A DNA stretch of 64,000 nt, taken from Candidatus Levyibacteriota bacterium (lineage in GTDB: Bacteria > Patescibacteriota > Microgenomatia > Levybacterales > UBA12049). The stretch covers positions 4,343-68,342 of the forward strand of contig JACROF010000012.1 of NCBI GenBank assembly GCA_016214555.1. The letters are read 5' to 3'. Positions within the stretch are counted from its first letter, which is position 1, and every line of letters begins with the position of its first letter. Positions 2,693 to 32,121 of the stretch are shown here, piece by piece. A model generated the notes under the pieces. The model did not search any database, was not told the DNA's origin, and saw nothing but the letters and a program-made list of their open reading frames with translations. The position numbers were made by a program, and so were the translations under genes.

Positions 2693-3304
2693 ATGATTGA
2701 CCAAGAGTACCCTCAGTGTAGTCATGACGGATCTCCGCTTGTAATAAAACAGACAAAGAGGTCTCCTGAGCAGCTGAAAAAATCTTTTTATTATTCTGCT
2801 TACTATTTCTGTCCACGCTGTAAAAGAATATACCATGACGAAAAATTTAAAGTGGTCTCAGAGAGGCCTACTCTTTTTAATGCGCCAAATAGTAAAAAAA
2901 TATTTGATATAGAAATATGGACTGATGGAGCATGTAGTAGAAATGGAGCGCCAAATGCAAAAGCTGCATGGGCATTTGTTAGCGGTAAACACGAAGAGGC
3001 AGGATTGGTTGATGGAAAGCAGACTAACAACAGAGGTGAGGCCTTAGCGATCTACCACGCTTTAGTATGGGCTGCTTCAAAAGGTTACAAAAAAATTAAG
3101 ATTAATTCTGATAGCCAGATTACCCTCCATGGCGTTGCTAAAGACCCAAAGAAAGTAAAAGAAAATCGTGATATTTTTGAGAGGATTTATCATACAGTTT
3201 TGAAGCACAACTTAGAAGTTGAGTATGTAAAAGTACTTGGTCACTCTGATAACAATGATAACAATAGAGCTGATGCTCTTGCCGTAAAATTGTCTTTAGA
3301 ATAA
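2693..3304 (+). CDS. rnhA: ribonuclease HI with N-terminal CxxC..CxxC zinc-ribbon domain
   Basis: RNase H fold motifs (IWTDGACS...GEALAIYHAL...INSDSQ...LGHSDNNDNNRADALA) preceded by about 65 aa containing CSHDG..CPRC. Confidence 0.7.
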   Translation: MIDQEYPQCSHDGSPLVIKQTKRSPEQLKKSFYYSAYYFCPRCKRIYHDEKFKVVSERPTLFNAPNSKKIFDIEIWTDGACSRNGAPNAKAAWAFVSGKHEEAGLVDGKQTNNRGEALAIYHALVWAASKGYKKIKINSDSQITLHGVAKDPKKVKENRDIFERIYHTVLKHNLEVEYVKVLGHSDNNDNNRADALAVKLSLE

Positions 3305-3396
3305 GCAAGTACTACTTTCTTCAAAGATGAGTGATTCCTAGTAATTGATGTATTAATTATCGTAGTAAAATCCTATCAATTCGCTATACTGAGTAA

Positions 3397-3945
3397 GTGA
3401 TTTTTTATCTTTTATTTGTCATAACAATTGCGCTTTTGCTTCTTCTCCTATCAATGGTTTGGCCACCAGATAGTCCATGGTCGCCATGGTGGAGAACAAA
3501 TAAGAAAACTGCATTGAAAATTATCAAGCTCGCAAAAATTACTGAAAAAGATTTTATTGTCGACTTGGGATGTGGTGATGGGACGGCATTAATAACTGCA
3601 GCAAAGAATAAGAAAGCGCATGGTGCTGGAGTTGAGATTGACCCCTTTCGAGTATTAATCGCAAAAATAAGAGTGCTTTTAGGTGGGGTTTCAGATTTAA
3701 TTGTCATTAAAAGAGGAAATCTTTTTGATCAAGACATATCAGGCTCATCATTAGTTATTGTTTATCTTATTCCAAAAACACTAAAAAGACTTAAGAAGAA
3801 GTTTTTTGCGGAATTAAAGCCTGGGACTAAAGTCATCAGCTACATGTATCAAATAGATTTTTTACCTGAGGTGGTGCGTGATGAAGATAGTCATGTTTAT
3901 GTTTATCTGATACCAAAAAAGCGAACTAACACTGAAAAAAATTAA
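3397..3945 (+). CDS. class I SAM-dependent methyltransferase with N-terminal TM anchor
   Basis: VDLGCGDGTALITAA glycine-rich SAM-binding motif I; N-terminal hydrophobic helix. Confidence 0.6.
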   Translation: MIFYLLFVITIALLLLLLSMVWPPDSPWSPWWRTNKKTALKIIKLAKITEKDFIVDLGCGDGTALITAAKNKKAHGAGVEIDPFRVLIAKIRVLLGGVSDLIVIKRGNLFDQDISGSSLVIVYLIPKTLKRLKKKFFAELKPGTKVISYMYQIDFLPEVVRDEDSHVYVYLIPKKRTNTEKN

Positions 3946-5290
3946 TGGTGTTAGAAATACCTTCTGAGCGGAATGGAAATTTTTTTATAAGGGTGCAATT
4001 ATTTTTAATGTCTTTGGTGGTCACAATATCAGTATATATTTCTTGACTGATCCCCAGCTCTGGATACGATACCCCTTCTGTGATAAAAAACCCATGATTT
4101 CGCATTAGATCTTTAGTCAGGTGATCTGCATTAAGATAGCCTTTTCTAAAAATATTACTGTTCGTGTCGACAATTTCATTAAGAAGAGGTTTATTTGTTG
4201 CAAGAGCGAGCGCTGGGGTAATTCCGTTAACACCGTACAATACTTTTGGATTTTCTTTATTAATCGTTTTTGTCATTGACTCAATGTCAATGTTTTGAAG
4301 GCTATGATAGCCTGAAAAAAATATCATAATATTTACTATTGCAGCAACTCCAATTATTGTTGTTATGAGATTTTTGTTTATTGAAAAACGAGCGAGAAGA
4401 TCTTTGACAATTTCAGGAAATGAGAGAATAAGTATTGGTATCATAACAACAAGATAGAGATAATAGCTGTCTTTATAGAATAGAAAAAATAGGAGTGAAA
4501 AGAGAGAAAATAATCCAAAGAACAATCTTTTTTTGATCCAAAAAATATTCGCAAACATGAGCAGGAATATAAGCGGATCGTGTTTTATTGCAAACCAAAA
4601 AATATGTAATTTACTAATCCCTTGAGATCTTGTAAGAGAATAAAAAAACACATCTTTCAAAAGATCGTTATAGGCAAGTAGTAACGATGGCAATAAGATG
4701 ATTGCTATGCAGGATAAAAATCCACAAATAAATTTTATCATCCCCTCCCTTTCTTTTATTAGTAGGATACATAAGTAGGAAATCAAAAGAGGAAGAGAGT
4801 ATGCCTTGCTAAGTAATGCAAATGCAGTGAATACTCCTGAGCTGATGTACTTTTTTTCTTGAAAAAATAAATAACTTAAAACAGTACTCAGGCACACTAA
4901 AAAAACTCCGGTCTGATGTTGGGAGGTTGCAAGTATAATAAATGAAAAAAGAAAAATAATAACACCTTGAATGGCATAAATTCTTGGTGATGACTTGATA
5001 ATTATTTTGTAGATAATTAATGCGGTAAATGATGATTCAAAAAACGCTGTTGAAAAATAGAATAAAAGATTTCCATGTGATATTAAATAATAAAAAGATG
5101 CAATATATGGAACAAGAGGAAAGTTAGTAAAAAATACGTCTTTGTAAAGTATTTTTCCAGACAACAATTCCTTTGCTGTATAAAAATAGATGCTAGTATC
5201 AGATGCGCGGACATGAAGAGTGGATAGTTTAATTACGAGAAAAAGTACTAAAATTAGAAAAGGAAAATATTTTTTTAGAAGATAGATCAT
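3926..5290 (-). CDS. polytopic membrane protein, putative GT-C-type glycosyltransferase
   Basis: 454 aa, at least 10 hydrophobic helices followed by soluble C-terminal domain; family not resolved. Confidence 0.4.
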   Translation of the reverse strand: MIYLLKKYFPFLILVLFLVIKLSTLHVRASDTSIYFYTAKELLSGKILYKDVFFTNFPLVPYIASFYYLISHGNLLFYFSTAFFESSFTALIIYKIIIKSSPRIYAIQGVIIFLFSFIILATSQHQTGVFLVCLSTVLSYLFFQEKKYISSGVFTAFALLSKAYSLPLLISYLCILLIKEREGMIKFICGFLSCIAIILLPSLLLAYNDLLKDVFFYSLTRSQGISKLHIFWFAIKHDPLIFLLMFANIFWIKKRLFFGLFSLFSLLFFLFYKDSYYLYLVVMIPILILSFPEIVKDLLARFSINKNLITTIIGVAAIVNIMIFFSGYHSLQNIDIESMTKTINKENPKVLYGVNGITPALALATNKPLLNEIVDTNSNIFRKGYLNADHLTKDLMRNHGFFITEGVSYPELGISQEIYTDIVTTKDIKNNCTLIKKFPFRSEGISNTINFFQC

Positions 5291-6879
5291 TGGTTGTGTA
5301 ATTGAGTTTTTAGTTGCATAAAGAATTGATCTGCTTCCCCTAAGTCATCTAGTTGTTTATCTATCCAGTCAATGCCGCTGCTATTTTCTATTTGCTTGTA
5401 GATTGCATATAGCTTTATATATGAAAGATAAAATGAAGGGTCAATCTCTAAAGATCTTCTATATTCTTTTTCAGCTTCATGTAAATTCCCTAATGAAAGA
5501 TAGGAGTTTCCTAAATTGTAGCGAGATTCGGGATAAGCATCTACAAGAGAAATAGCTTTCTTGTAGGTGATTATTGCATTTTTTGAATCACCATTTTCAG
5601 CATAAGCCATTGCAAGATTGTTGTAAGCTCTCGGGCTTTGAACATGTTGGATTGTTTGGAGATAAAATTTAATTGGGTCGTGCCAGTCCTGATTTCTCGT
5701 AATAGTTCTATACATAAGAAATAAGATATATATGGCAAGAGGGATGAGAAGAAGGTAAAGAAAATTAACATTTTTTTTATAGAGAGAGTAGATGATGTAA
5801 GAAAATAGAAGAAAAAAGCCAACTGATGGAAAGTATAAAAAATGTTCATAAAAAATTCCATTAATAGGAATAAGTCCTGATGTTGGAATAAATGAAATTC
5901 CTATCCACGAAAGAGAAAAAAGAACTATTGGATTTTTTTCACGTTTTAAGTACGCAAATATAAGTGATACAAGTAGGCAAAGAGGTACAATAATCGTAGT
6001 TATTGTACCACGCAAAAAAATAGATATTCCTGAATCTCTTTCCATGAAAAGATTTTTTGGATAGGCAAGAAGATGCAGGTATGTTGGAAATAGATTGATA
6101 AAAGTATTGATTCGAACAAAGATATTTGAGGAATAAATATTTTTAGAGTTATAAAAATTTAATGTATTTGCAAAGTTAAATACTGTAATTCGAAGAAAAA
6201 AGTAGCAAAGAGTAATAAGTGCATAGGGAATTGTGGTAATGACTGCTTTTTTAAGATTATGTTTGTTAAAAAAATAATGAGTTGTTAAGAGTAGTCCAGG
6301 CAACATGAGTGCAATTTCTTTTGAGAGTAGCGCCAGTAAGAGAGAAAGAAAAGATAAAATTTTTGCTTTTTTTTCAGAAGATAGTGAAAAATAGAGAGTT
6401 AGCATGCAAAACAAAAAACTGAGAGGATCCCCTCTTCCCGATGCATAAGAAACAGCTTCGGTTTGAATAGGATGGATAAGAAAAAGCAATGATGTCAAAA
6501 ATGAAAGAAGCCGTTTGTGAAAAAGTTTTTGGAGGAAAAAGAACAGAACTATTCCACCTGCAAAGTGGATAAGGAAACTATTTAGGTGATAAATAAATCC
6601 GTTGTTGCCAAAGAGATGATATTCGATACTGAATCCTAAAAATAGTATTGGTCTAAAATAATTACTTTCTTTTCCTGCTCCTGAAATAAGGCTTTCAGAA
6701 AATATTTTTTGAACATCAAATGTTTTAACGAATTGATTATTGTAAATGAATTGCTCATCATCGAAAAATAAGCCATTTCCTAGGGTGTTTGCGTAGCAAA
6801 AGAAAGTTAGAAAAAAAAGAATTGTTATTAAATAAAGAGATGAAAGTTTTGACAACTTTTTGATAAATTGGATTGACAT
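5287..6879 (-). CDS. polytopic membrane protein with C-terminal TPR repeats (PMT/ArnT-like GT-C + TPR)
   Basis: 530 aa; many TM helices; C-terminal AYNNLAMAYAENGD...YNLGNSYLSLGNLHEAEKEY TPR-like repeats. Confidence 0.45.
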   Translation of the reverse strand: MSIQFIKKLSKLSSLYLITILFFLTFFCYANTLGNGLFFDDEQFIYNNQFVKTFDVQKIFSESLISGAGKESNYFRPILFLGFSIEYHLFGNNGFIYHLNSFLIHFAGGIVLFFFLQKLFHKRLLSFLTSLLFLIHPIQTEAVSYASGRGDPLSFLFCMLTLYFSLSSEKKAKILSFLSLLLALLSKEIALMLPGLLLTTHYFFNKHNLKKAVITTIPYALITLCYFFLRITVFNFANTLNFYNSKNIYSSNIFVRINTFINLFPTYLHLLAYPKNLFMERDSGISIFLRGTITTIIVPLCLLVSLIFAYLKREKNPIVLFSLSWIGISFIPTSGLIPINGIFYEHFLYFPSVGFFLLFSYIIYSLYKKNVNFLYLLLIPLAIYILFLMYRTITRNQDWHDPIKFYLQTIQHVQSPRAYNNLAMAYAENGDSKNAIITYKKAISLVDAYPESRYNLGNSYLSLGNLHEAEKEYRRSLEIDPSFYLSYIKLYAIYKQIENSSGIDWIDKQLDDLGEADQFFMQLKTQLHNQ

Positions 6880-22793: not shown

Positions 22794-23362
22794 TGCTTAG
22801 CCCCCTTTTCACCTTCTAACTTACTTTTCCCCAGGACTCCAGATGAGATTACGGCTGCAATTTGCGCTGTCGTTGATTTATTTTCAATTCTATCGATACT
22901 TACCTCAGATAGCTCTTTTTTTTCTTGAATACCTCCTACGAAATCTCTCAAATTTTTTATATCAAAAGCAACTAATTCAATATGGAGAGAATTATTGCTT
23001 ACAGACATACTTTTAATAGAAATGTTATTTTTTTGCGCAAGCAATGTTATGTCTTCTAAGAGAAGGGGAAGAAAAGCAACATCGGTGTTAAGCTTCTTGG
23101 TTTGAAGAAGCCTTTCTTGCAATTGGCGATATGAGTCTTCTTGTTCTTTGAAAGTTTCTACAATTCTTGTTTTTGCTTTAATTTTGTCATGAAGGTCGAT
23201 GATTTGACGATCAAGCGTAAAACGATAGAGAAAAGCGGCAAGCGCAATCGTTTCTGTAAGAATGACTAAAAATCTTCCGCCAGTAATTGCCCATTTAATA
23301 AAAACATCAAGGGAGGGAGTGCCCTTTTTTTTAAGAAGATTGATTGTTAGTTGTTTGGTCAT
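22790..23362 (-). CDS. type IV pilus assembly protein PilN-like
   Basis: 190 aa; N-terminal LTINLLKKK (INLLP-like PilN motif) followed by TM helix and coiled coil. Confidence 0.55.
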
Positions 23363-23537
23363 GGCAGGCAGATTGTGTTTAACAACACAAACACAGCCGA
23401 CAGATAATCAGCCTTATCTCAGTCTAAGATCTTTTTCCTTAAAAGTAAAGAAAAACACTTTTTATTTCATGCTAGAAATAGGCGCAAAATTGTGTTATAC
23501 TTTCTTTGTCCCGAATAGATACGGGATTTTTCTTTCT

Positions 23538-25646
23538 ATGGCAGATACACAACGACAGGTACCACTTGATAAAATCCGAAATATCGGAATTATTGCTCAT
23601 ATTGACGCAGGTAAAACAACAACTACCGAGCGTATTCTTTTCTATACAGGCCGAACTTATAAGATCGGAGATATCGATGAAGGGAACACGCAAATGGATT
23701 GGATGGAACAGGAGAAAGAACGCGGAATTACTATTGTTTCAGCTGCGACTACTACTTTCTGGAAGGATCATCGCATCAATATAATTGATACTCCTGGCCA
23801 TGTTGATTTTACCGCAGAAGTAGAACGTTCTTTAAGAGTTCTTGATGGAGGCATTACCGTGCTGGATGCAGAAGAGGGAGTGCAGTCTCAGTCAGAAACT
23901 GTTTGGCGTCAAGCTGATAAATATAAAGTTCCTCGTATCTGTTTTGTCAACAAAATGGATAAATTAGGCGCAGACTTTCTTGCAACAGTAAAAAGTATTG
24001 AAGATCGACTTGGTGCAAATCCGGCAATTATGGTTCTTCCTATTGGTGCAGAAAGTACGTATGTAGGAAATGTTGATCTTTTGACAAGACAATCAATCCG
24101 TTGGAGCTCTGAAGAGCTTGGAGCAAAGTTTGACCTTTCAGACGAAATTCCCTCCGATATGAAAGATCAGGTAGAAGAGTATAGAGCAAAACTTATTGAA
24201 AAAATTGCTGAGACAGATGATGCACTTTTGGAAAAATATCTTGGCGGAGAAGAGCCTTCAATTGACGAGCTCAAGAAAGCTCTCCGTGCGGCAGTTATCG
24301 CCTACAAACTTGTTCCTATTTATGCTGGAACTTCGCTTCGCAATAAAGGAGTTCAGCCACTTTTGGATGCGGTTGTTGATTTTCTCCCCTCCCCTGTTGA
24401 TCTTAAAGAGGTTACAGGAGTTCATCCCAAAACAGGAGAGCCAGAAGTAAGACAGCTTGTTCCAGATGCTTCATTTAGCGGTCTTGCATTTAAGATCCAA
24501 AACGATCCTCATGTAGGAAAATTGACCTATTTCCGTGTTTATTCAGGAAAAATTGAAGCTGGATCCTATGTATATAACAGCACAAAGGGAGTTAAAGAGC
24601 GCGTAGGAAGACTTCTTATGATGCATGCAAATCAGCGTGAGGAGATAAAAGAAGGATTTGCTGGAGAAATCGTTGCTGTCGTTGGCCTAAAAGATACAGG
24701 AACTGGTGATACATTGTGCGACGAGACAAAGCAGATTGTTTTGGAAAAAATTTCGTTTCCTGAGCCTGTTATATCCCTTGCTATTGAACCTCAAACAAAA
24801 TCTGATCAGGAAAAACTTGGTTATGCCCTTAAAAGACTTACTGAGGAAGATCCAACATTTTCTGTTAAAAGCAATCATGAAACAGGACAGACGATTATTT
24901 CAGGTATTGGAGAATTGCAGCTTGAGGTTATGGTGGATCGCATGAAGAGGGAGTTTAATGTGCTTGCAAATGTTGGTGCGCCGCAAGTTGCGTACAAAGA
25001 AACATTTACAGAAAAGGTAGAGGCTGAGGGTAAATATATTCGCCAATCAGGAGGAAGAGGACAATTCGGACATTGTTGGCTTCGTATAGAGCCAAAAACT
25101 CGTGGAGAAGGAAATGAATTTGTGAGCGAAATTAAAGGAGGAGCTATTCCTGCGGAATTTGTTAAAGCTGTTGAAAAAGGAGTTTGGGAGACGCTTGAAA
25201 ATGGCGTTCTTCTTGGATATCCAGTCGTTGATGTAAAAATTGCGTGCTATGATGGCTCATTCCACGAAGTAGACTCAAGTGAGGTTGCATTTAAGATTGC
25301 AGCAAGTCAGGCGATTCAGGCTGCATCTAAAAAATCCCAAATGAATTTACTTGAGCCTATTATGAAGGTTGAGGTTACAACACCCTCTGAGTATATGGGA
25401 GATGTGATGGGAGATCTTTCAAGTAAGCGTGGGCAAATCGTTGGAACAGAAGAAAGGTCGCGAGCAACGATCATTAATGCGCTTGTACCCCTTGCTGAGC
25501 TCTCAGGCTATGCAACTCAAATTAGGTCGATGTCTCAGGGGCGAGCATCTTATTACATGGAGCCAAGCCATTATGATATCGTTCCAAGAAATATCGTTGA
25601 GCAAATGCTTGCTAAATCCACCTTCACAGGCCGTGTTGAAGCATAA
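23538..25646 (+). CDS. fusA: translation elongation factor G
   Basis: [38 protein letters not shown]...DTPGHVDF...NKMD; about 703 aa from ATG at 23538; the ORF-track start at 23262 is an upstream in-frame extension. Confidence 0.9.
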
Positions 25647-27500: not shown

Positions 27501-27530
27501 CCCCGCCTGTATCAATTGACACAGACGGGG
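27501..27530 (-). terminator. GC-rich hairpin (CCCCGCCTGT/ACAGACGGGG, 9 of 10 bp) followed by T-run on the minus strand
   Basis: lies between convergent stops (27489 plus strand, 27539 minus strand); the A8 run at 27492-27499 reads as T8 on the minus strand. Confidence 0.6.
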
Positions 27531-27538
27531 CGTGAGGC

Positions 27539-28576
27539 TTACAAGACCAATGCATAGTCTTGACGAAAGCTATCAAACGCAGCAATTGCGATTGAGAGAG
27601 TCCGATCGTCTAGACACACATGGTCGCACAACATCATGGTGCGAAAGCCAGCGTTATAGAGATAGGCAAGTTCCGAAAAATCAGCACATTCAGGTGTGTC
27701 CTGGGGTTCTCCAGTGATTGGGTTTTTTTGCCCCAAGGAAAGGAAGATTCGTGAACCAACACAGGCCTCGGGATCTTTTTGAATAATCTCCTCAAGTGCT
27801 TGAAGAATGTGATGAGGGCGAGGAAGCTCAACATAGAGGTCTCCCCGTGCCGCCATCAATCTGACGTTTGGCTGTGGCTTAAAGCTCTTTCTGACATAGG
27901 TCATTCCCTTTGGTGACTCAATCTTGAGCATGACTGTTGCGTCGTGCCCAACAAGATCTAGGAATTGCCCTACGTCCTCCTCAGACTCTACATAGGAAAG
28001 AAAGAATCTTGTGAATCCTGCAGCCTTCACCATCTCAATTTTTTCAAGTTCCAGGTCTGTGAAGAGTGGTCCTTGAATTGAGAGGCTAGCATTGCGGATG
28101 CACATCGAGTCGCCTGGTACGACTTCAGATCGAGGTCCATATCGTTTGCCAGGTGCAAAAATTAGCCTCTTACCGTCATCTGCGATAGCTATGAGGATTG
28201 CATGATCTGATCCAGATTTGAGCTCTACTGGAATACCACGGGCTGGATCGACATTTAGAGAGATAGGGTGATTGAGGGTGACTTCCAAATGCGTTGGATA
28301 GTCATGCACCTCTGCAACCCGAATCTGCCGACTTTTGATGTCATACCACATAGGGACAGTGGAATATGTCTTGCGAAGGACCTCAAGGTCCTTCGCAAGA
28401 TCAGAAGGGTTGACCATCGGCCTATTGAGGCGGATGCCGCTTAGGCGATGGTCAGTTGCAAATGTGGCAAAATGCGGCATTGTTGGCCACAAAGTTGCCA
28501 TGAGATCCAGCCTCTCAGGAGTCATAGGAAAATCCTGAGGCTGTGTCTTAAAAAGGTCGAGAAACCGGTTTGGCAT
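27539..28576 (-). CDS. pyruvate-kinase-like (PK barrel) protein with about 120-aa N-terminal extension
   Basis: VMLKIESPKGM and RLMAARGDLYVELP spaced exactly as PK KIEN...MVARGDLGVEIP (22 residues); downstream TMMLCDH resembles PK VMLSGE; start taken at MPNRF (ATG 28576-28574) after a GGAGG RBS; the ORF track extends to 28642. Confidence 0.5.
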   Translation of the reverse strand: MPNRFLDLFKTQPQDFPMTPERLDLMATLWPTMPHFATFATDHRLSGIRLNRPMVNPSDLAKDLEVLRKTYSTVPMWYDIKSRQIRVAEVHDYPTHLEVTLNHPISLNVDPARGIPVELKSGSDHAILIAIADDGKRLIFAPGKRYGPRSEVVPGDSMCIRNASLSIQGPLFTDLELEKIEMVKAAGFTRFFLSYVESEEDVGQFLDLVGHDATVMLKIESPKGMTYVRKSFKPQPNVRLMAARGDLYVELPRPHHILQALEEIIQKDPEACVGSRIFLSLGQKNPITGEPQDTPECADFSELAYLYNAGFRTMMLCDHVCLDDRTLSIAIAAFDSFRQDYALVL

Positions 28577-29537
28577 CTTCATCCTCCAAGAGCATGATCG
28601 ACTTTCCGCTATGATCGCGGGGATCACCAGGGGAGACAGCAAGAATTGTCTTGAGTGACCTGTATGCCGCCTCTACCTGTCCTGGTTTTTGTCGCTCATT
28701 GATCTCATCGTGATAAAAATCAACTTTACCGGTCTTTTTGGCGAAGATACCCAAAATGACATCAACGACTCGGTTGGGGTCACGAAGAATCGCGATGTGG
28801 TCCTCTCCCAGTAGCTTCACCCAGTCAGCATGAATTGCACTACTCTCCGGGTCTAGGGACTGCAGTGAATCAGCAGTCGAATGGCTATAGGGCTTTTGAA
28901 TGAAGTAGACATCGGAGTCTTTATTCAGCTTAGCAAAAAGCTCTGCTGTTGTGATTCGTTCTGTCGTGACCTTGGCAAATTGTTGCGCAAGTTTTGGGCT
29001 CACCTCGTCATATGGTGACTCGTCGCCAAGGAAAATAATGAGCGGTCTTGTCGCATTGGGCATTGAGACGTTGTGAGATACGTACAGTGCAGCGAGCTCA
29101 TAAGACTCAGTGGTTTTGGGGCCACCACCACCTTCATATTTCAATCGAGTTGGGTCGAGTTCCGCCTTGAGATCAGCGCCTTGTGCAAAGGCGTGTCCTT
29201 GAAGCGGATATTTGTCACAGGTTGCATCGCCAACAGCCATGAAAAGGATCTGGGCGTCATCATCAAAGTAGATCTGACGAGCGTAGGTGTCAAGCAGAGG
29301 TAGCTTGCCACGAATTGTGGCTGGCCACTCCTGCATTGATCCGGTGACGTCAATCACAACGATAATTGGGTGCCTACTTGTTGTAGTAATAGTTGCTGCA
29401 AGAAGAGATGAGGCAGATACCCCAGAGCTTACAGCACTGGAATAGCTCCGTCCAGCGTCAACAACGTAAGCGTTGCGTGCAGCAGTGAAATCGCTATCAT
29501 CTCTCCATTCTCTTGGAGTACTGATTGCACTTCCCAT
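28548..29537 (-). CDS. von Willebrand factor A (vWA) domain protein
   Basis: IIVVIDVTGSM MIDAS-type DxTGS motif at the start of an alpha/beta domain; 329 aa. Confidence 0.55.
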   Translation of the reverse strand: MGSAISTPREWRDDSDFTAARNAYVVDAGRSYSSAVSSGVSASSLLAATITTTSRHPIIVVIDVTGSMQEWPATIRGKLPLLDTYARQIYFDDDAQILFMAVGDATCDKYPLQGHAFAQGADLKAELDPTRLKYEGGGGPKTTESYELAALYVSHNVSMPNATRPLIIFLGDESPYDEVSPKLAQQFAKVTTERITTAELFAKLNKDSDVYFIQKPYSHSTADSLQSLDPESSAIHADWVKLLGEDHIAILRDPNRVVDVILGIFAKKTGKVDFYHDEINERQKPGQVEAAYRSLKTILAVSPGDPRDHSGKSIMLLEDEDAKPVSRPF

Positions 29538-29539
29538 CG

Positions 29540-30556
29540 TTAGCTCCTTTCAGCCTTCAGTGGCTTCATGCCGGTATGAAGACGTCCAAACGACTCAAGC
29601 CGAACTCTTTGAATAGTCTCGCAGAGGTCCTCCTTGCCCCAGTGAGGTCTTTCCATCGGATCTTCACGTACTAACCTGCTGATGAATTCGACGAAAGGAT
29701 CAGGGGTCTTTTTGGGAACTTTCTTGTCTTTGACAAGATTTGGGTCGCGCGTGAGCGCGAAGATTAATGTCATACCGAGCGCATAAAGATCTGACTCTGG
29801 GATTGGTGGTTTGCCTGCTATTTGCTCAGGGGGAGCAAAAAGCTCAGTATAACCAATAGTACGAGATGTACCAGTTGGCTTGACTGATGAGAGTCCAAAA
29901 TCGATCAGTACAGCCATGTGTTTGTCAGGCTGCACGATGATATTTTGAGGCTTGATATCTCCATGAATGATTTGATTATGGTGTAGATATGCAAGCGCAT
30001 TAAGTGAGCGCTCTGCTATCCACGAAACTCCTTCAGGATCCAGTGGTCCGAGATCGCCAACAAGTTTGAAGAGGGTATCTCCTGGAATGTAACTCATCAC
30101 AAGCGCAAGGCTTCCATCATCCATTTTGAGCATATCTCTCATGGTGGGAAGCGCGTAGTGACGAAGATCCCATACTACTTTTGCTTCATCGATCAGAATC
30201 TGATTTCTCAGAGTTGATACTTTTGAGCAAAACTTGATACAGACGAGTTCTCCCGTAATCAGATGTTCTGCTTTGTGGGTTGGGCCAAAGCCTCCCTCTG
30301 CGATTTTTTCGATAATTCGATACCCTCCGACAATCATGTCGTCTTTTTTACCTCGATCCCGCATAAAGCGAGCGAGTTTATCCGGGTCACTAATTATTTC
30401 ATATGCAGTATTGATATGTACGAAGATTTCGGGATCACCACCTTTGTCAGGGTGATATGCTCTTGCAAGCCCTTTCCATGCGCCTTCAATGGCAGCAGGG
30501 TCTGCGTTTGGCAATAGACCAAGGGTTTGGAATGGATCAGTAATAACTGTCACCAA
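29540..30556 (-). CDS. J-domain (DnaJ-like) fused to Hanks-type Ser/Thr protein kinase
   Basis: N-terminal AYHPDKGGDPEIF (HPD J-domain signature); kinase subdomains AEGGFGPTH / VCIKF / HGDIKPQNI / DFGLS / APPE. Confidence 0.7.
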   Translation of the reverse strand: MVTVITDPFQTLGLLPNADPAAIEGAWKGLARAYHPDKGGDPEIFVHINTAYEIISDPDKLARFMRDRGKKDDMIVGGYRIIEKIAEGGFGPTHKAEHLITGELVCIKFCSKVSTLRNQILIDEAKVVWDLRHYALPTMRDMLKMDDGSLALVMSYIPGDTLFKLVGDLGPLDPEGVSWIAERSLNALAYLHHNQIIHGDIKPQNIIVQPDKHMAVLIDFGLSSVKPTGTSRTIGYTELFAPPEQIAGKPPIPESDLYALGMTLIFALTRDPNLVKDKKVPKKTPDPFVEFISRLVREDPMERPHWGKEDLCETIQRVRLESFGRLHTGMKPLKAERS

Positions 30557-30858
30557 TTTCTCCTTTCCTAATTATTCCTGCCAGTAGGCAGCGTCTTGGC
30601 TACTATTTATAGTAAACAAGACGCCACCTGCTGACATGATTTTTCGGTACTTTGTTAAAGAACAAAAATTTCTCTTCCATGACATATTAGTCAGGTTTGA
30701 AATTCGTTGGTTATTATAACACATACTACCTATAGTAGTGATTTGTACTTGTATCAAACGCTTGAAGTAGGTGAAAAATTCTTTTTAGAAATCGATGAGG
30801 CTAATTATTTTTTAAAATTTAGCCTCAGAGTTATACAAAATTACTCCTGAAAAGGGTA

Positions 30859-30942: not shown

Positions 30943-32121
30943 ATGGCAACATTTAATCGAAACAAACCACACGTCAATATCGGAACGATCGGCCACGTCG
31001 ATCACGGTAAGACAACAACAACTGCAGCTATTGCTACTGTTCTTTCAAAGCACGGTGGAGGAGAGGCTAAGAAATACGAAGACATCGACAATGCTCCAGA
31101 GGAAAAGGCTCGTGGAGTAACCATTAATATTTCCCACATCGAATACGAAACAGAAAAGCGTCATTATGCTCATATCGATGCTCCAGGTCACGCTGATTAC
31201 ATCAAAAACATGATTACAGGGGCGGCTCAAATGGACGGAGCAATTCTTGTCGTCTCAGCGCCTGATGGTCCAATGCCTCAGACTCGAGAACACATTCTTC
31301 TTGCATATCAAGTTGGCGTTCCAGCAATCGTTGTTTACCTTAACAAATGTGATATGGTTCAGGACGAAGAGCTTTTGGACCTTGTTGAGATGGAAGTTCG
31401 TGAACTTCTTACCAAATACAAATACCCAGGCGACACAACTCCAATTATCCGTGGTTCATCTCTTAAGGCACTTGAGGGAGATCCAGCATACGAAGAAAAA
31501 ATAATGGAACTTATGAAGACAGTTGATGAGTACATTCCAACTCCAACTCGTGATCTTGATAAGCCATTCTTGATGCCTGTTGAGGACGTTTTCTCAATCA
31601 AAGGTCGAGGAACAGTCGTTACAGGAAGAGTCGAGCGTGGAGTTGTCAAAGTTAACGAGCCTATTGAAATCGTTGGTATGAAAGCAACAACACAAAGTGT
31701 CGTTACTGGAGTTGAGATGTTTAGAAAACAGCTCGATCAAGGTCAGGCTGGAGATAACGTAGGACTTCTTCTAAGAGGTGTTGAGAAGGACGATGTTGAG
31801 CGTGGACAGGTATTGGCAAAGCCTGGTTCTATCACTCCACACACTGATTTTGAAGCAGAAGCATACATTCTTTCTAAAGAAGAGGGTGGCCGACATACAC
31901 CATTCTTTAAGGGATATCGACCACAATTTTATATCAGAACTACCGACGTAACTGGGGAAACTATCCTTCCAGACGGTGTTGAGATGGTAATGCCTGGAGA
32001 CAATACAAAAATGACAGTAAAACTTATTGTACCTGTTGCTCTTGAAGAAGGACTTCGATTTGCTATCCGCGAAGGCGGACGAACAGTCGGAGCAGGTGTT
32101 ATTAGTAAAATCTTAAAATAA
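30943..32121 (+). CDS. tuf: translation elongation factor Tu
   Basis: [21 protein letters not shown] motifs; 392 aa. Confidence 0.95.

What the first reader, a model, noticed from the sequence alone, without database searches (positions are those of the whole stretch)
29540..30556. J-domain fused to a eukaryotic-like Ser/Thr protein kinase
The first 70 residues carry the DnaJ J-domain hallmark, with the tripeptide inside AYHPDKGGDPEIF followed by a helix IV-like segment. They run straight into a complete Hanks kinase core: GxGxxG-like AEGGFGPTH, Lys in VCIKF, catalytic loop HGDIKPQN, DFGLS and an APPE-like segment.

A J-domain would recruit Hsp70/DnaK to the kinase or its substrates. A kinase physically coupled to the chaperone cycle is uncommon in bacteria, and here it sits in an HGT island next to a vWA protein.
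Basis: seen in the sequence. Interest (0 to 1): 0.7.

Follow-up and report, generated by a model that had tools for sequence, protein, structure and literature searches.

The report
J-domain kinase in a mobile three-gene operon
The gene encodes a real chaperone-recruiting J-domain fused to an intact protein kinase, and it is the first gene of an undescribed three-gene cassette (kinase, vWA adaptor, pyruvate-kinase-like enzyme) shared by ultra-small bacteria, ultra-small archaea and large phages.

Summary
ORF 29540-30556 (-) encodes 338 aa with a DnaJ J-domain (42 bits, cut-off 27.8; HPD between helices II and III in an AlphaFold model) running into a complete Hanks kinase (117 bits). All catalytic residues are invariant in the family, and the catalytic loop is non-RD (HGD).

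All three genes were found in 67 of the 70 family loci (66 of 67 species-representative genomes, mostly CPR bacteria and DPANN archaea), usually in the same order. They also occur in 22 IMG/VR viral contigs and a 485-kb phage. About 200 Bxz1-type mycobacteriophages carry the J-kinase-like/vWA pair.

A sister clade lacks the J-domain and has a metallophosphatase instead. HPD is lost in 24% of members.

Best reading: a mobile vWA-kinase phospho-switch, analogous to TerY-P, that acquired Hsp70 coupling. Its function is untested. I found no description of it in six full-text searches. I class it as a new variant of a known kind.

The parts
29540..30556 (-). Gene 1: J-domain / Hanks Ser/Thr kinase fusion, 338 aa (TTG start; the NCBI record aa)
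   Evidence: ORF; Pfam DnaJ plus Pkinase; 100% identical to 'protein kinase [Candidatus Levybacteria bacterium]'; AF2 model pLDDT 86.7.
30353..30538 (-). J-domain, aa 7-68. Helix I is 8-12, helix II 20-34, helix III 42-56, helix IV 58-68. HPD is aa 35-37, at nt 30446-30454.
   Evidence: Pfam 42.4 bits; DSSP of the AF2 model; 38% identity to the E. coli DnaJ J-domain; 43 PDB J-domains matched.
29648..30322 (-). Kinase domain, aa 79-303. Features: G-loop GGFG 88-91; K108 (nt 30233-30235); Glu124; non-RD catalytic loop H198-G-D200 (D200 at nt 29957-29959); N205; D219-F-G (nt 29900-29902); APPE 241-244; R303.
   Evidence: Pfam 117 bits. All these residues are invariant in the 29-sequence alignment A1.
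29558..29602 (-). Conserved low-confidence C-terminal tail of the kinase, aa 319-333. Family consensus VRxxSFGRxxSGMKP; the window copy has T (T328) where the consensus has the second S. Candidate docking or phosphorylation motif.
   Evidence: R319 and F323 are invariant; G324, R325, S328 and K331 are conserved in at least 90%. pLDDT falls to 79 and then 51.
28548..29537 (-). Gene 2: divergent vWA-fold protein, 329 aa. Its start lies 2 nt after the kinase stop codon. vWA fold aa 56-300.
29337..29351 (-). MIDAS-like motif D63-V-T65-G-S67 at the end of beta-1. The further invariant acidic residues are E144 (nt 29106-29108) and D172 (nt 29022-29024).
   Evidence: D63, T65, S67, E144 and D172 are invariant in A2 and A4.
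28551..28634 (-). Disordered C-terminal tail of the vWA protein (aa 302-329) with conserved G311-K-S313 and a basic/Leu C-terminus
   Evidence: pLDDT below 50 for aa 302-329. S313 is invariant and G311 is conserved in at least 90%.
27539..28582 (-). Gene 3: pyruvate-kinase-like A+B domains without the C domain, 347 aa (the NCBI record aa, presumably from the second Met at 28576). It overlaps the end of gene 2 by 29-35 nt. Conserved residues are R51/N53, D81/K83/R88, K220/E222 (nt 27917-27925), G247/D248 (nt 27839-27841) and S277/R278.
   Evidence: Pfam PK barrel 22.6 bits, below the cut-off of 30. The family profile A3 matches PDB pyruvate kinases at E = 2e-16 over the A+B domains.
27501..27530 (-). 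Intrinsic terminator-like hairpin (13 pairs, 8 G-C) followed by a T run, 8 nt after the stop of gene 3. It marks the end of the operon.
28369..28400 (-). Perfect 32-nt palindrome inside gene 3 (codons 61-71), kept through compensatory changes in relatives. Role unknown.

Best explanation
The ORF encodes a genuine, probably active non-RD Hanks kinase with an N-terminal canonical J-domain. It is the first gene of a translationally coupled, terminator-bounded operon. The other two genes encode an integrin-beta-like vWA protein with a MIDAS-type metal site and a C-domain-less pyruvate-kinase-like phosphotransferase. None of the sequence, domain or structure analyses indicated secretion or membrane anchoring, but no dedicated predictor was run.

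The triad is an ancient module found in CPR bacteria, DPANN archaea and large phages, with a tree that suggests repeated exchange among them.

The most likely mechanism is a reversible phospho-switch of the vWA/Ser-Thr-kinase type, working like TerY-P or ArnB-type modules. The steps below are inferred, not shown.
- The kinase phosphorylates the conserved disordered tails of its partner, of itself, or of a bound target.
- The vWA domain acts as the peptide-binding adaptor through its metal site.
- The PK-like enzyme couples the switch to phosphoenolpyruvate, either regenerating NTP locally or sensing PEP.
- The J-domain was added later in one clade. With HPD intact, as here, it docks ATP-bound DnaK/Hsp70 onto the complex. 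Hsp70 is then either loaded onto the kinase-bound client or remodels the kinase-vWA assembly.

Shown here: the domain identities, conservation of catalytic residues, the operon structure, and its distribution.
For: Domains and residues:
- Pfam domain scores; catalytic residues invariant across the family.
- AF2 J-fold geometry, with HPD between helices II and III.
- The best whole-chain PDB match is the DNAJB1-PKAc chimera 4wb7, a J-to-kinase fusion in the same order.

Partner genes:
- PK-like profile matches PDB pyruvate kinases at E = 2e-16, with the R/N, D/K/R, K-I-E, G-D and S motifs invariant.

Operon and distribution:
- Gene spacing of 2 nt, an overlap of 29-35 nt, and a terminator.
- All three genes found in 67 of 70 family loci, mostly in the same order and strand; four intact loci have vWA and PK-like divergent upstream of the kinase.
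- The complete triad in 22 IMG/VR contigs and in phage record LR745208.1.

Support for a reversible phospho-signalling module:
- Among 95 flanking genes, the recurring partners are protein phosphatases: metallophosphoesterase in 6 and PP2C in 3.
- More distant vWA relatives are fused to other modifying enzymes (U-box, NUDIX), as expected for an adaptor.

J-domain constraint:
- The J-domain is under purifying selection. Mean pairwise identity is 0.43, against 0.565 for the kinase. HPD is kept in 58 of 76 members, and in 21 of 23 viral copies.
- Many DPANN archaea have DnaK-DnaJ-GrpE (PMC8204110).
Against: - No biochemical data exist for any member.
- HPD is lost in 18 of 76 members, and in 13 of 33 CPR/bacterial copies, so Hsp70 activation cannot be the core function.
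- The J-less sister clade works without a J-domain.
- The helix II basic patch is weak. The E. coli DnaJ R22 and R27 equivalents are E24 and G29 here.
- No dnaK gene was identified in the 64-kb window. Only ten of its ORFs were scanned, so the presence of the partner in this genome was not verified.
- The role of the PK-like enzyme is a guess. Nothing ties it to the kinase apart from strict co-occurrence.
- The window copy of the PK-like protein scores below Pfam's cut-off.
Confidence: 0.5

Rival explanations
1. The cassette is a phage host-takeover module. The kinase phosphorylates host proteins such as translation factors or DnaK itself, and the J-domain hijacks the host Hsp70. Cellular copies in CPR and DPANN genomes would then be captured or domesticated phage genes.
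For: - The NJ tree shows at least 5 separate viral clusters interleaved with cellular ones.
- The cassette is present in the 485-kb phage record LR745208.1 and in 22 IMG/VR contigs.
- About 200 cultured cluster C mycobacteriophages carry the J-kinase-like/vWA pair.
- HPD retention is highest in viral copies, 21 of 23.
- Neighbours in the viral contigs are Thg1, ADP-ribosylglycohydrolase, HNH, histidine phosphatase and EF-G.
- Jumbo phages are reported to carry DnaJ cochaperones predicted to recruit host Hsp70 (PMC7824862).
- The window copy has +0.11 GC relative to its host.
Against: - Most copies lie in cellular contigs without recognisable phage genes nearby.
- Cassette GC tracks the surrounding DNA from 0.31 to 0.60, with a median excess of only 0.028.
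- The window copy sits between housekeeping genes and has been kept beside the same GH18 gene in relatives down to 72% identity.
- No att-like direct repeats or tRNA gene flank it.
- The viral status of the IMG/VR contigs was not independently verified. The PHROG scan of neighbours was uninformative.
Confidence: 0.25
2. The cassette is an anti-phage defence or abortive-infection system of the TerY-P type. The vWA protein would be the sensor, and the kinase (and perhaps the PK-like enzyme) the effector that shuts the cell down.
For: - The kinase domain scores well against PADLOC kinases: mad6 at 3e-37 and PD-T4-6 at about 1e-34.
- vWA + STK + phosphatase TerY-P modules are reported as stand-alone defence systems (PMC11090510).
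- The cassette has a patchy, HGT-like distribution and anomalous GC.
- The kinase is non-RD.
Against: - The vWA and PK-like proteins hit no PADLOC model.
- Only 2 of 95 immediate neighbours are defence-type genes, both methyltransferases, so there is no defence-island signal.
- The cassette is carried by phages themselves, including about 200 mycobacteriophage genomes.
- The PADLOC kinase hits cover the generic kinase domain and do not distinguish this family from other Hanks kinases.
Confidence: 0.15
3. The J-domain is mainly a structural J-like module, for example packing on the kinase N-lobe or binding the vWA partner, and does not engage Hsp70. The HPD in this copy would be an ancestral remnant.
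For: - HPD is lost repeatedly (FPN, GPD, YPD, MPN, APD, deletions) in 18 of 76 members, while fold-determining positions stay 86-100% conserved (L12, V14, A18, V22, I23, A25, A26, L30, A51, L55, R61).
- The helix II basic patch is poor.
- The linker between helix IV and the first kinase strand is short, about 10 residues.
Against: - HPD is kept in 76% overall and in 104 of the 120 closest relatives, which is far more than drift would leave.
- J-domain identity is higher among HPD-bearing members, 0.46 against 0.38.
- The window copy is 38% identical to the E. coli DnaJ J-domain.
Confidence: 0.1

Closest known systems
TerY-P triad and related vWA / Ser-Thr kinase / PP2C modules (as defined in PMC11090510; also the kinase-PP2C-vWA theme in PMC7159879, and D. 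radiodurans DRA0331-0334, bioRxiv 10.64898/2026.01.23.701218)
   Same: An operon pairing a stand-alone MIDAS-type vWA protein with a Hanks kinase. Protein phosphatases recur next to the cassette (PP2C in 3-4 loci, metallophosphoesterase in the J-less clade). The predicted logic is a phosphorylation-dependent switch.
   Different: - The vWA protein matches no TerY, Pfam or PADLOC model.
- The kinase carries an N-terminal J-domain instead of a C-terminal zinc ribbon or OB fold.
- The constant third gene is a pyruvate-kinase-like enzyme, not PP2C.
- The hosts are CPR bacteria, DPANN archaea and phages.
DNAJB1-PRKACA chimera (PDB 4wb7), the oncogenic J-domain/PKA fusion of fibrolamellar carcinoma
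   Same: The same N-to-C order, J-domain then kinase core. It is the top whole-model Foldseek hit, E = 6e-18. From memory, the chimera is reported to bind Hsp70.
   Different: It is a somatic human gene fusion, not an evolved family. The kinase is of the AGC group, and there are no vWA or PK-like partners.
GAK / auxilin-2 (from memory: kinase, PTEN-like region, clathrin-binding region and C-terminal J-domain)
   Same: A natural protein combining a Ser/Thr kinase with a J-domain that brings Hsc70 to an assembly to be remodelled.
   Different: The domain order is reversed. It is eukaryotic, with additional PTEN-like and clathrin-binding domains, and shows no homology beyond the two generic domains.
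Mycobacteriophage Bxz1 / ET08 gp247-gp248 (cluster C; annotated 'serine/threonine kinase' and 'hypothetical protein')
   Same: gp247 has a J-like N-terminus with HPD followed by a kinase-like domain, 26.7% identical over aa 2-258. gp248 belongs to the same vWA-like family, hmmsearch E = 1.3e-37, with the DVTGS motif. The two genes are adjacent and co-directional.
   Different: - The gp247 catalytic loop is HGA rather than HGD, and DFG is replaced by DWC, so it is probably a pseudokinase.
- Its DnaJ score is below the cut-off, at 18.7 bits.
- ET08 gp248 carries an insertion of about 270 aa with weak Hint/intein similarity.
- No PK-like gene was detected in these phage records.
Canonical pyruvate kinase (e.g. 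E. coli PykF, PDB 1pky)
   Same: Gene 3 aligns over the A barrel and B cap at E about 1e-15. The Arg/Asn, Asp-x-Lys...Arg, Lys-Ile-Glu, Gly-Asp and Ser(Thr) active-site motifs are invariant.
   Different: It lacks the C-terminal regulatory domain, at about 310-345 aa against 470. It is encoded in a signalling operon rather than with glycolytic genes. The window copy scores below the Pfam cut-off.
Phage-encoded J-domain cochaperones (jumbo-phage DnaJ proteins, PMC7824862; from memory, Rki of phage RB43)
   Same: A J-domain carried by a phage and predicted or shown to engage the host Hsp70.
   Different: Those proteins are not fused to a kinase and are not part of a vWA/PK-like operon.

Membership tests
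J-domain (DnaJ, PF00226) | Profile score above the curated cut-off | tested here: met
   42.4 bits against a cut-off of 27.8, aa 7-61. 43 PDB J-domains matched.
J-domain (DnaJ, PF00226) | HPD tripeptide in the loop between helix II and helix III of a four-helix bundle | tested here: met
   H35-P36-D37 lies between helices 20-34 and 42-56, with pLDDT 92-94. It aligns with HPD of E. coli DnaJ.
J-domain (DnaJ, PF00226) | Basic patch on helix II that contacts Hsp70 | tested here: inconclusive
   Only K28 (equivalent to K26) and R32 are basic.
J-domain (DnaJ, PF00226) | HPD-dependent stimulation of Hsp70 ATPase | not testable with these tools
   This needs biochemistry. Family-wide, HPD is kept in 58 of 76 members.
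Hanks-type Ser/Thr protein kinase (PF00069) | G-loop, VAIK Lys, alpha-C Glu, catalytic HxD...N, DFG, APE and subdomain XI Arg | tested here: met
   117 bits. G88/F90/G91, K108, E124, H198/D200/N205, D219/G221, E244 and R303 are invariant in 29 sequences. The kinase is of non-RD type, HGD.
vWA domain | Sequence-profile match (Pfam VWA families) | tested here: not met
   No hit for the window protein. Only 7 of 37 family members give sub-threshold VWA_CoxE hits, E of 0.029 or worse.
vWA domain | Rossmann-like vWA fold | tested here: met
vWA domain | MIDAS metal site (DxSxS ... T ... D) | tested here: inconclusive
   The invariant variant is D63-x-T65-x-S67 ... E144 ... D172. It resembles the integrin beta-I type with Glu; that comparison is from memory. 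The spatial clustering of these residues could not be checked.
TerY-P triad | TerY-like vWA protein | tested here: not met
   No PADLOC or Pfam match for the vWA partner.
TerY-P triad | PP2C phosphatase gene in the operon | tested here: not met
   Absent from the window operon. PP2C is adjacent in only 3-4 related loci (L009, L038, L046, L069).
TerY-P triad | Kinase fused C-terminally to a zinc ribbon or OB fold | tested here: not met
   The C-terminus is a short disordered tail, and the fusion is an N-terminal J-domain.
Pyruvate kinase | Barrel (A) plus cap (B) domains with catalytic Lys, Glu/Asp metal ligands, and Arg/Asn PEP and cation site | tested here: met
   The family profile matches PDB pyruvate kinases at E = 2e-16 over chain residues 2-315. 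R51, N53, D81, K83, R88, K220, E222, D248 and S277 are invariant. The window copy alone scores 22.6 bits, below the cut-off of 30.
Pyruvate kinase | C-terminal alpha/beta regulatory domain (tetramer and effector site) | tested here: not met
   The protein ends after the barrel, at about 310-345 aa against 470, and there is no match beyond about chain residue 315.
Known anti-phage defence systems (PADLOC-DB 2.0) | All components match models of one system | tested here: not met
   Only the generic kinase domain hits (mad6, PD-T4-6, MkoA). Genes 2 and 3 have no hits.

The most novel reading that the evidence does not exclude
The triad is a self-contained, PEP-fuelled and Hsp70-coupled protein-kinase switch that is traded between CPR bacteria, DPANN archaea and their large phages. 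In this reading the PK-like enzyme makes NTP on the spot from phosphoenolpyruvate. The kinase and the J-domain together seize or gate the chaperone and translation machinery of a cell that is infected or metabolically dependent. That would make it a new class of host-manipulation or dormancy module, specific to the smallest cells and the largest phages.
Probability: 0.15. Interest if true: 0.85.

Novelty: new variant of a known kind. Interest (0 to 1): 0.62.

Why it matters
A natural, evolutionarily maintained J-domain/kinase fusion would be a direct physical link between Ser/Thr phosphorylation and the Hsp70 cycle in prokaryotes and their viruses. As far as I know and as far as the PDB matches show, such a fusion has been characterised only as a human oncogenic accident (DNAJB1-PRKACA) or, in reversed order, in GAK.

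The cassette is one of the few multi-gene modules shared across domains by CPR bacteria and DPANN archaea, which have tiny genomes and host-dependent lifestyles, and it also occurs in huge phages. It is therefore a candidate for a function tied to that lifestyle or to its viruses.

The related gene pair in about 200 cultured Bxz1-type mycobacteriophages offers a possible experimental entry point in M. smegmatis. Otherwise the family is known almost entirely from uncultured organisms.

The obligate pyruvate-kinase-like partner has no precedent that I could find in kinase/vWA signalling modules.

Tried and rejected
- Pfam, NCBIfam and PADLOC on the vWA-like protein gave nothing. A profile search of PDB sequences with A2 gave only chance hits. 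Fold comparison was needed to identify the domain.
It was redone with database homologues.
- The afdb50 fold library was unavailable.
- Six full-text searches combined J-domain, kinase, vWA, pyruvate kinase, CPR, DPANN, huge phage, Bxz1 and TerY. None found a description of this fusion or triad. One query was rejected for syntax.
- I looked for integration signatures. There is no tRNA within 29 kb and no flanking direct repeats. I therefore rejected a recent integrative element.
- I looked for dnaK, dnaJ and grpE. Ten of the window's ORFs, all between 3.9 and 20.5 kb, were scanned and none is DnaK.
- The defence-island hypothesis was tested by a census of 95 flanking genes. Only 2 are methyltransferases.
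- Rfam on the island found nothing relevant.
- A PHROG scan of neighbours in one viral contig group was uninformative about virion genes.
- I considered that the J-less kinases might have a separate J-domain gene nearby. tblastn found none.
- I considered that gene 3 might be an HpcH/citrate-lyase-type aldolase, as in Ter clusters. I rejected this because every PDB match shown in the profile search was a pyruvate kinase and the PK active-site motifs are kept.
Full report
**1. Observation**

Both domains pass Pfam's curated cut-offs. DnaJ PF00226 covers aa 7-61 at 42.4 bits (cut-off 27.8). Pkinase PF00069 covers aa 79-303 at 117.1 bits (cut-off 31.7). NCBIfam adds only generic DnaJ and kinase similarities, all far below family cut-offs. 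The protein is identical to a GenBank entry named 'protein kinase [Candidatus Levybacteria bacterium]', so the window comes from a CPR (Patescibacteria) genome.

**2. Anatomy of the protein**

An AlphaFold2 model built on 29 homologues has mean pLDDT 86.7. It shows helices at 8-12, 20-34, 42-56 and 58-68, with H35-P36-D37 in the loop between the second and third. This is the canonical J-domain geometry. About ten residues later the first kinase strand begins.

The J segment alone matches 43 solved J-domains (best E = 1.3e-9). The helix II basic patch is thin: the equivalents of DnaJ R22 and R27 are E24 and G29.

In a 29-sequence alignment the following kinase residues are invariant:
- G88/F90/G91 (glycine loop)
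- K108
- E124
- H198-G199-D200 and N205 (catalytic loop)
- D219/G221 (DFG)
- E244 (APE)
- R303

The catalytic loop is HGD, not HRD, so this is a non-RD kinase.

A C-terminal tail is conserved but modelled with low confidence. Its family consensus is SFGRxxSGMKP; the window copy has Thr328 where the consensus has the second Ser.

The best whole-chain match in the PDB is the DNAJB1-PKAc chimera 4wb7. The next-ranked matches are kinase domains aligned over about 260-300 columns.

**3. The gene is part of an operon**

Gene 2 (28548-29537) starts 2 nt after the kinase stop codon. Gene 3 (27539-28582, or 28576 if the 345-aa NCBI call starts at the second Met) overlaps the end of gene 2 by 29-35 nt. 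A 13-bp G+C-rich hairpin with a T run follows 8 nt after gene 3.

Gene 3 gives only a sub-threshold Pfam pyruvate-kinase hit on its own. A family profile, however, matches solved pyruvate kinases at E = 2e-16 across the A barrel and B cap. The R-x-N, D-x-K...R, K-I-E, G-D and S-R motifs are invariant. The C-terminal regulatory domain is missing. Most database entries for genes 2 and 3 that carry a name are called 'hypothetical protein', and a few gene 3 entries are called 'pyruvate kinase'.

**4. Distribution**

The 120 closest database clusters all have the J+kinase architecture at about 50% identity. A scan of one genome per species returned 67 family loci. Together with three loci fetched by exact protein look-up, this gives 70 family loci. 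All three genes were found in 67 of them, 66 of the 67 scan loci. In most the order and strand are the same. Four intact loci have vWA and PK-like divergent upstream of the kinase, and a fifth, truncated, locus shows the same layout for vWA.

The record titles are overwhelmingly of two kinds:
- CPR lineages: Levy-, Davies-, Collier-, Sacchari-, Parcu-, Uhr-, Peri-, Adlerbacteria and others.
- DPANN archaea: Woesearchaeota, Nanoarchaeota, and the complete AR15 chromosome.

A few MAGs are labelled Gammaproteobacteria, Bdellovibrionota, Spirochaetales or Methanosarcinales. These may be mis-binned or mislabelled.

The vWA partner has 1,619 representatives at 50% clustering with E at or below 1e-3, and 386 at or below 1e-30.

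Phage occurrences:
- The complete triad occurs in 22 IMG/VR contigs of 45-485 kb, and two more carry it partially. It also occurs in GenBank record LR745208.1 ('uncultured phage', 485 kb).
- About 200 cultured cluster C mycobacteriophages (Bxz1, ET08 and others) carry an adjacent pair. gp247 has a J-like N-terminus with HPD plus a kinase-like domain with HGA and DWC in place of HGD and DFG. gp248 is a member of the same vWA-like family at E = 1.3e-37.
- Those mycobacteriophage records have no PK-like gene.

An unsupported NJ tree shows a DPANN cluster, several CPR clusters and at least five viral clusters interleaved.

**5. Is it an HGT island?**

The block has GC 0.477 against 0.367 for the rest of the window. 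This is the largest excess among the 68 loci compared (67 related loci plus the window). Elsewhere cassette GC tracks the surrounding DNA from 0.31 to 0.60, with a median excess of 0.028.

Relatives at 82% and 72% identity carry the cassette beside the same GH18 gene. There are no flanking direct repeats and no nearby tRNA gene. The cassette is therefore foreign in origin, but it has been resident and vertically inherited in this Levybacteria lineage for some time.

**6. The J-domain is an accretion and is not always functional**

A sister clade (L058, L062, L064-L067, L070) has a kinase of about 262 aa that starts at the kinase domain, and no J-domain is encoded nearby. Six of these seven loci (all but L070) have a metallophosphoesterase gene upstream. 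A radical-SAM gene lies downstream in four of them and in the truncated locus L068.

Among 76 full-length members, 58 keep HPD:

| Group | HPD kept |
|---|---|
| Viral | 21 of 23 |
| DPANN/archaeal | 17 of 20 |
| CPR/bacterial | 20 of 33 |

The other 18 have varied replacements or deletions, yet keep the hydrophobic core of the J fold. Mean pairwise identity is 0.43 for the J-domain and 0.565 for the kinase. Of the 120 closest relatives of the window protein, 104 keep HPD.

**7. Mechanism**

Shown here:
- an intact J fold with HPD;
- an intact kinase active site;
- a vWA fold with a conserved metal-site motif;
- a PK-like active site;
- translational coupling of the three genes;
- strict co-occurrence of the three genes;
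- recurrent neighbouring phosphatases (metallophosphoesterase in 6 and PP2C in 3 of 95 flanking genes) and, in DPANN loci, a PhoU-domain gene.

More distant vWA relatives are fused to U-box or NUDIX domains, as expected if the vWA domain is an adaptor that presents targets to a modifying enzyme.

Inferred: the triad is a reversible phospho-switch resembling vWA/STK/phosphatase modules.
- The kinase acts on the conserved disordered tails or on a bound target.
- The vWA metal site binds an acidic or phosphorylated peptide.
- The PK-like enzyme links the switch to PEP, either by local NTP regeneration or by PEP sensing.
- Where HPD is intact, the J-domain brings ATP-bound Hsp70 to load onto, or remodel, the complex.

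Many DPANN archaea do encode DnaK-DnaJ-GrpE (PMC8204110). Whether this Levybacteria genome encodes DnaK could not be checked.

**8. Rival explanations**

- Phage host-takeover module. This is supported by the several viral clusters, the high HPD retention in viral copies, and the neighbouring Thg1, ADP-ribosylglycohydrolase and EF-G genes. Against it are the many ameliorated cellular copies without phage genes nearby.
- TerY-P-like defence system. The analogy and the generic PADLOC kinase hits favour it. Against it, genes 2 and 3 match no defence model, only 2 of 95 neighbours are defence-type, and phages carry the cassette.
- Purely structural J-like domain. The repeated loss of HPD supports this. 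The 76-87% retention of HPD argues against it.

These readings are not mutually exclusive.

**9. Comparison with known systems and novelty**

It works like a TerY-P or vWA-STK-PP2C switch (definition in PMC11090510; related themes in PMC7159879). It fails all three membership criteria: TerY-type vWA, PP2C, and a zinc-ribbon or OB kinase fusion.

As a J-kinase fusion, its only structural counterpart is the human DNAJB1-PRKACA chimera. GAK has the reverse order (from memory). Jumbo-phage DnaJ cochaperones are known (PMC7824862) but are not fused to kinases. Six full-text searches found no description of this fusion or triad.

I rate it a new variant of a known kind. The kinase/vWA signalling logic and J-domain adaptors are both known. 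The combination, the obligate PK-like partner and the CPR/DPANN/phage distribution are new.

**10. Limits**

- There are no experimental data for any member.
- The taxonomy rests on MAG labels.
- The viral status of the IMG/VR contigs was not independently verified.
- The tree has no support values.
- The spatial arrangement of the MIDAS residues and the J/kinase interface could not be inspected.

Noticed in passing
window 28369-28400 (inside gene 3, codons 61-71); L166 and L167 at the homologous place: A perfect 32-nt palindrome (15-bp arms), the only perfect hairpin with arms of 12 nt or more in the 64-kb window. It is retained as a 12-bp stem in relatives at about 79% (L166) and 70% (L167) amino-acid identity. 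In L167 two compensatory double substitutions preserve it (TTGCGAAGGACC/GGTCCTTCGCAA becomes TTGCGCAGGAGC/GCTCCTGCGCAA). RNAfold gives -21 to -26 kcal/mol. Of 72 other PK-like genes, only L043 has a comparable stem at that position. It could be an internal RNA processing or pausing element, or a DNA operator; its role is unexplained.
   Followed up: partly
L164 (Mycobacterium phage ET08, NC_013650.1) 2980-4047 and 4089-5873; about 200 cluster C mycobacteriophage records: gp247 has a J-like N-terminus (AVHPDR) plus a kinase-like domain with HGA and DWC in place of HGD and DFG, so it is probably a pseudokinase. gp248 is a member of the same vWA-like family (E = 1.3e-37, DVTGS motif), interrupted in ET08 by an insertion of about 270 aa with weak Hint/intein similarity. 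No PK-like gene was found in these phage records.
   Followed up: partly
L086, L087, L090 and L096 (IMG/VR contigs), directly downstream of the triad; window 23262-25646 (fusA) and 30943-32121 (tuf): In one group of viral contigs a full-length EF-G gene (694 aa) immediately follows the triad. In the window the triad sits between fusA (two genes away) and tuf (386 nt upstream, divergent). This may be coincidence. From memory, translation factors are known kinase targets in other systems.
   Followed up: no
L058, L062, L064-L068: The J-less sister clade forms a five-gene cluster: metallophosphoesterase, kinase, vWA, PK-like, radical-SAM enzyme.
   Followed up: partly
L006, L011, L014, L019, L022, L024, L026, L036, L052, L055: A PhoU-domain protein of about 320 aa lies next to the cassette, usually divergent and upstream, in loci that are mostly DPANN-type by label or tree position. 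One further locus has a PHO4 phosphate transporter as a neighbour. This may indicate a link to phosphate status.
   Followed up: no
window 27668-27683 and 30637-30652: A 16-nt inverted repeat (15 of 16 complementary) brackets most of the three-gene block. One arm lies inside the 3' end of gene 3 and the other 80 nt upstream of gene 1. My rough estimate is that about 0.1 such pairs would arise by chance in a region of this size. Significance unknown.
   Followed up: no
P0362, P0364, P0372 (U-box) and P0368 (NUDIX); L168-L170: More distant members of the vWA-like family carry C-terminal U-box or NUDIX domains. The U-box form occurs on single-gene contigs of about 1.3 kb, which look like transcripts, perhaps eukaryotic. 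Giant-virus vWA proteins fused to RBR/RING E3 domains appear among the fold matches.
   Followed up: partly
window 23262-25646: The longest ORF for EF-G (794 aa) begins about 90 codons upstream of the conserved N-terminus ([12 protein letters not shown]...). The real start is probably internal, so the mechanical ORF overstates the gene.
   Followed up: no
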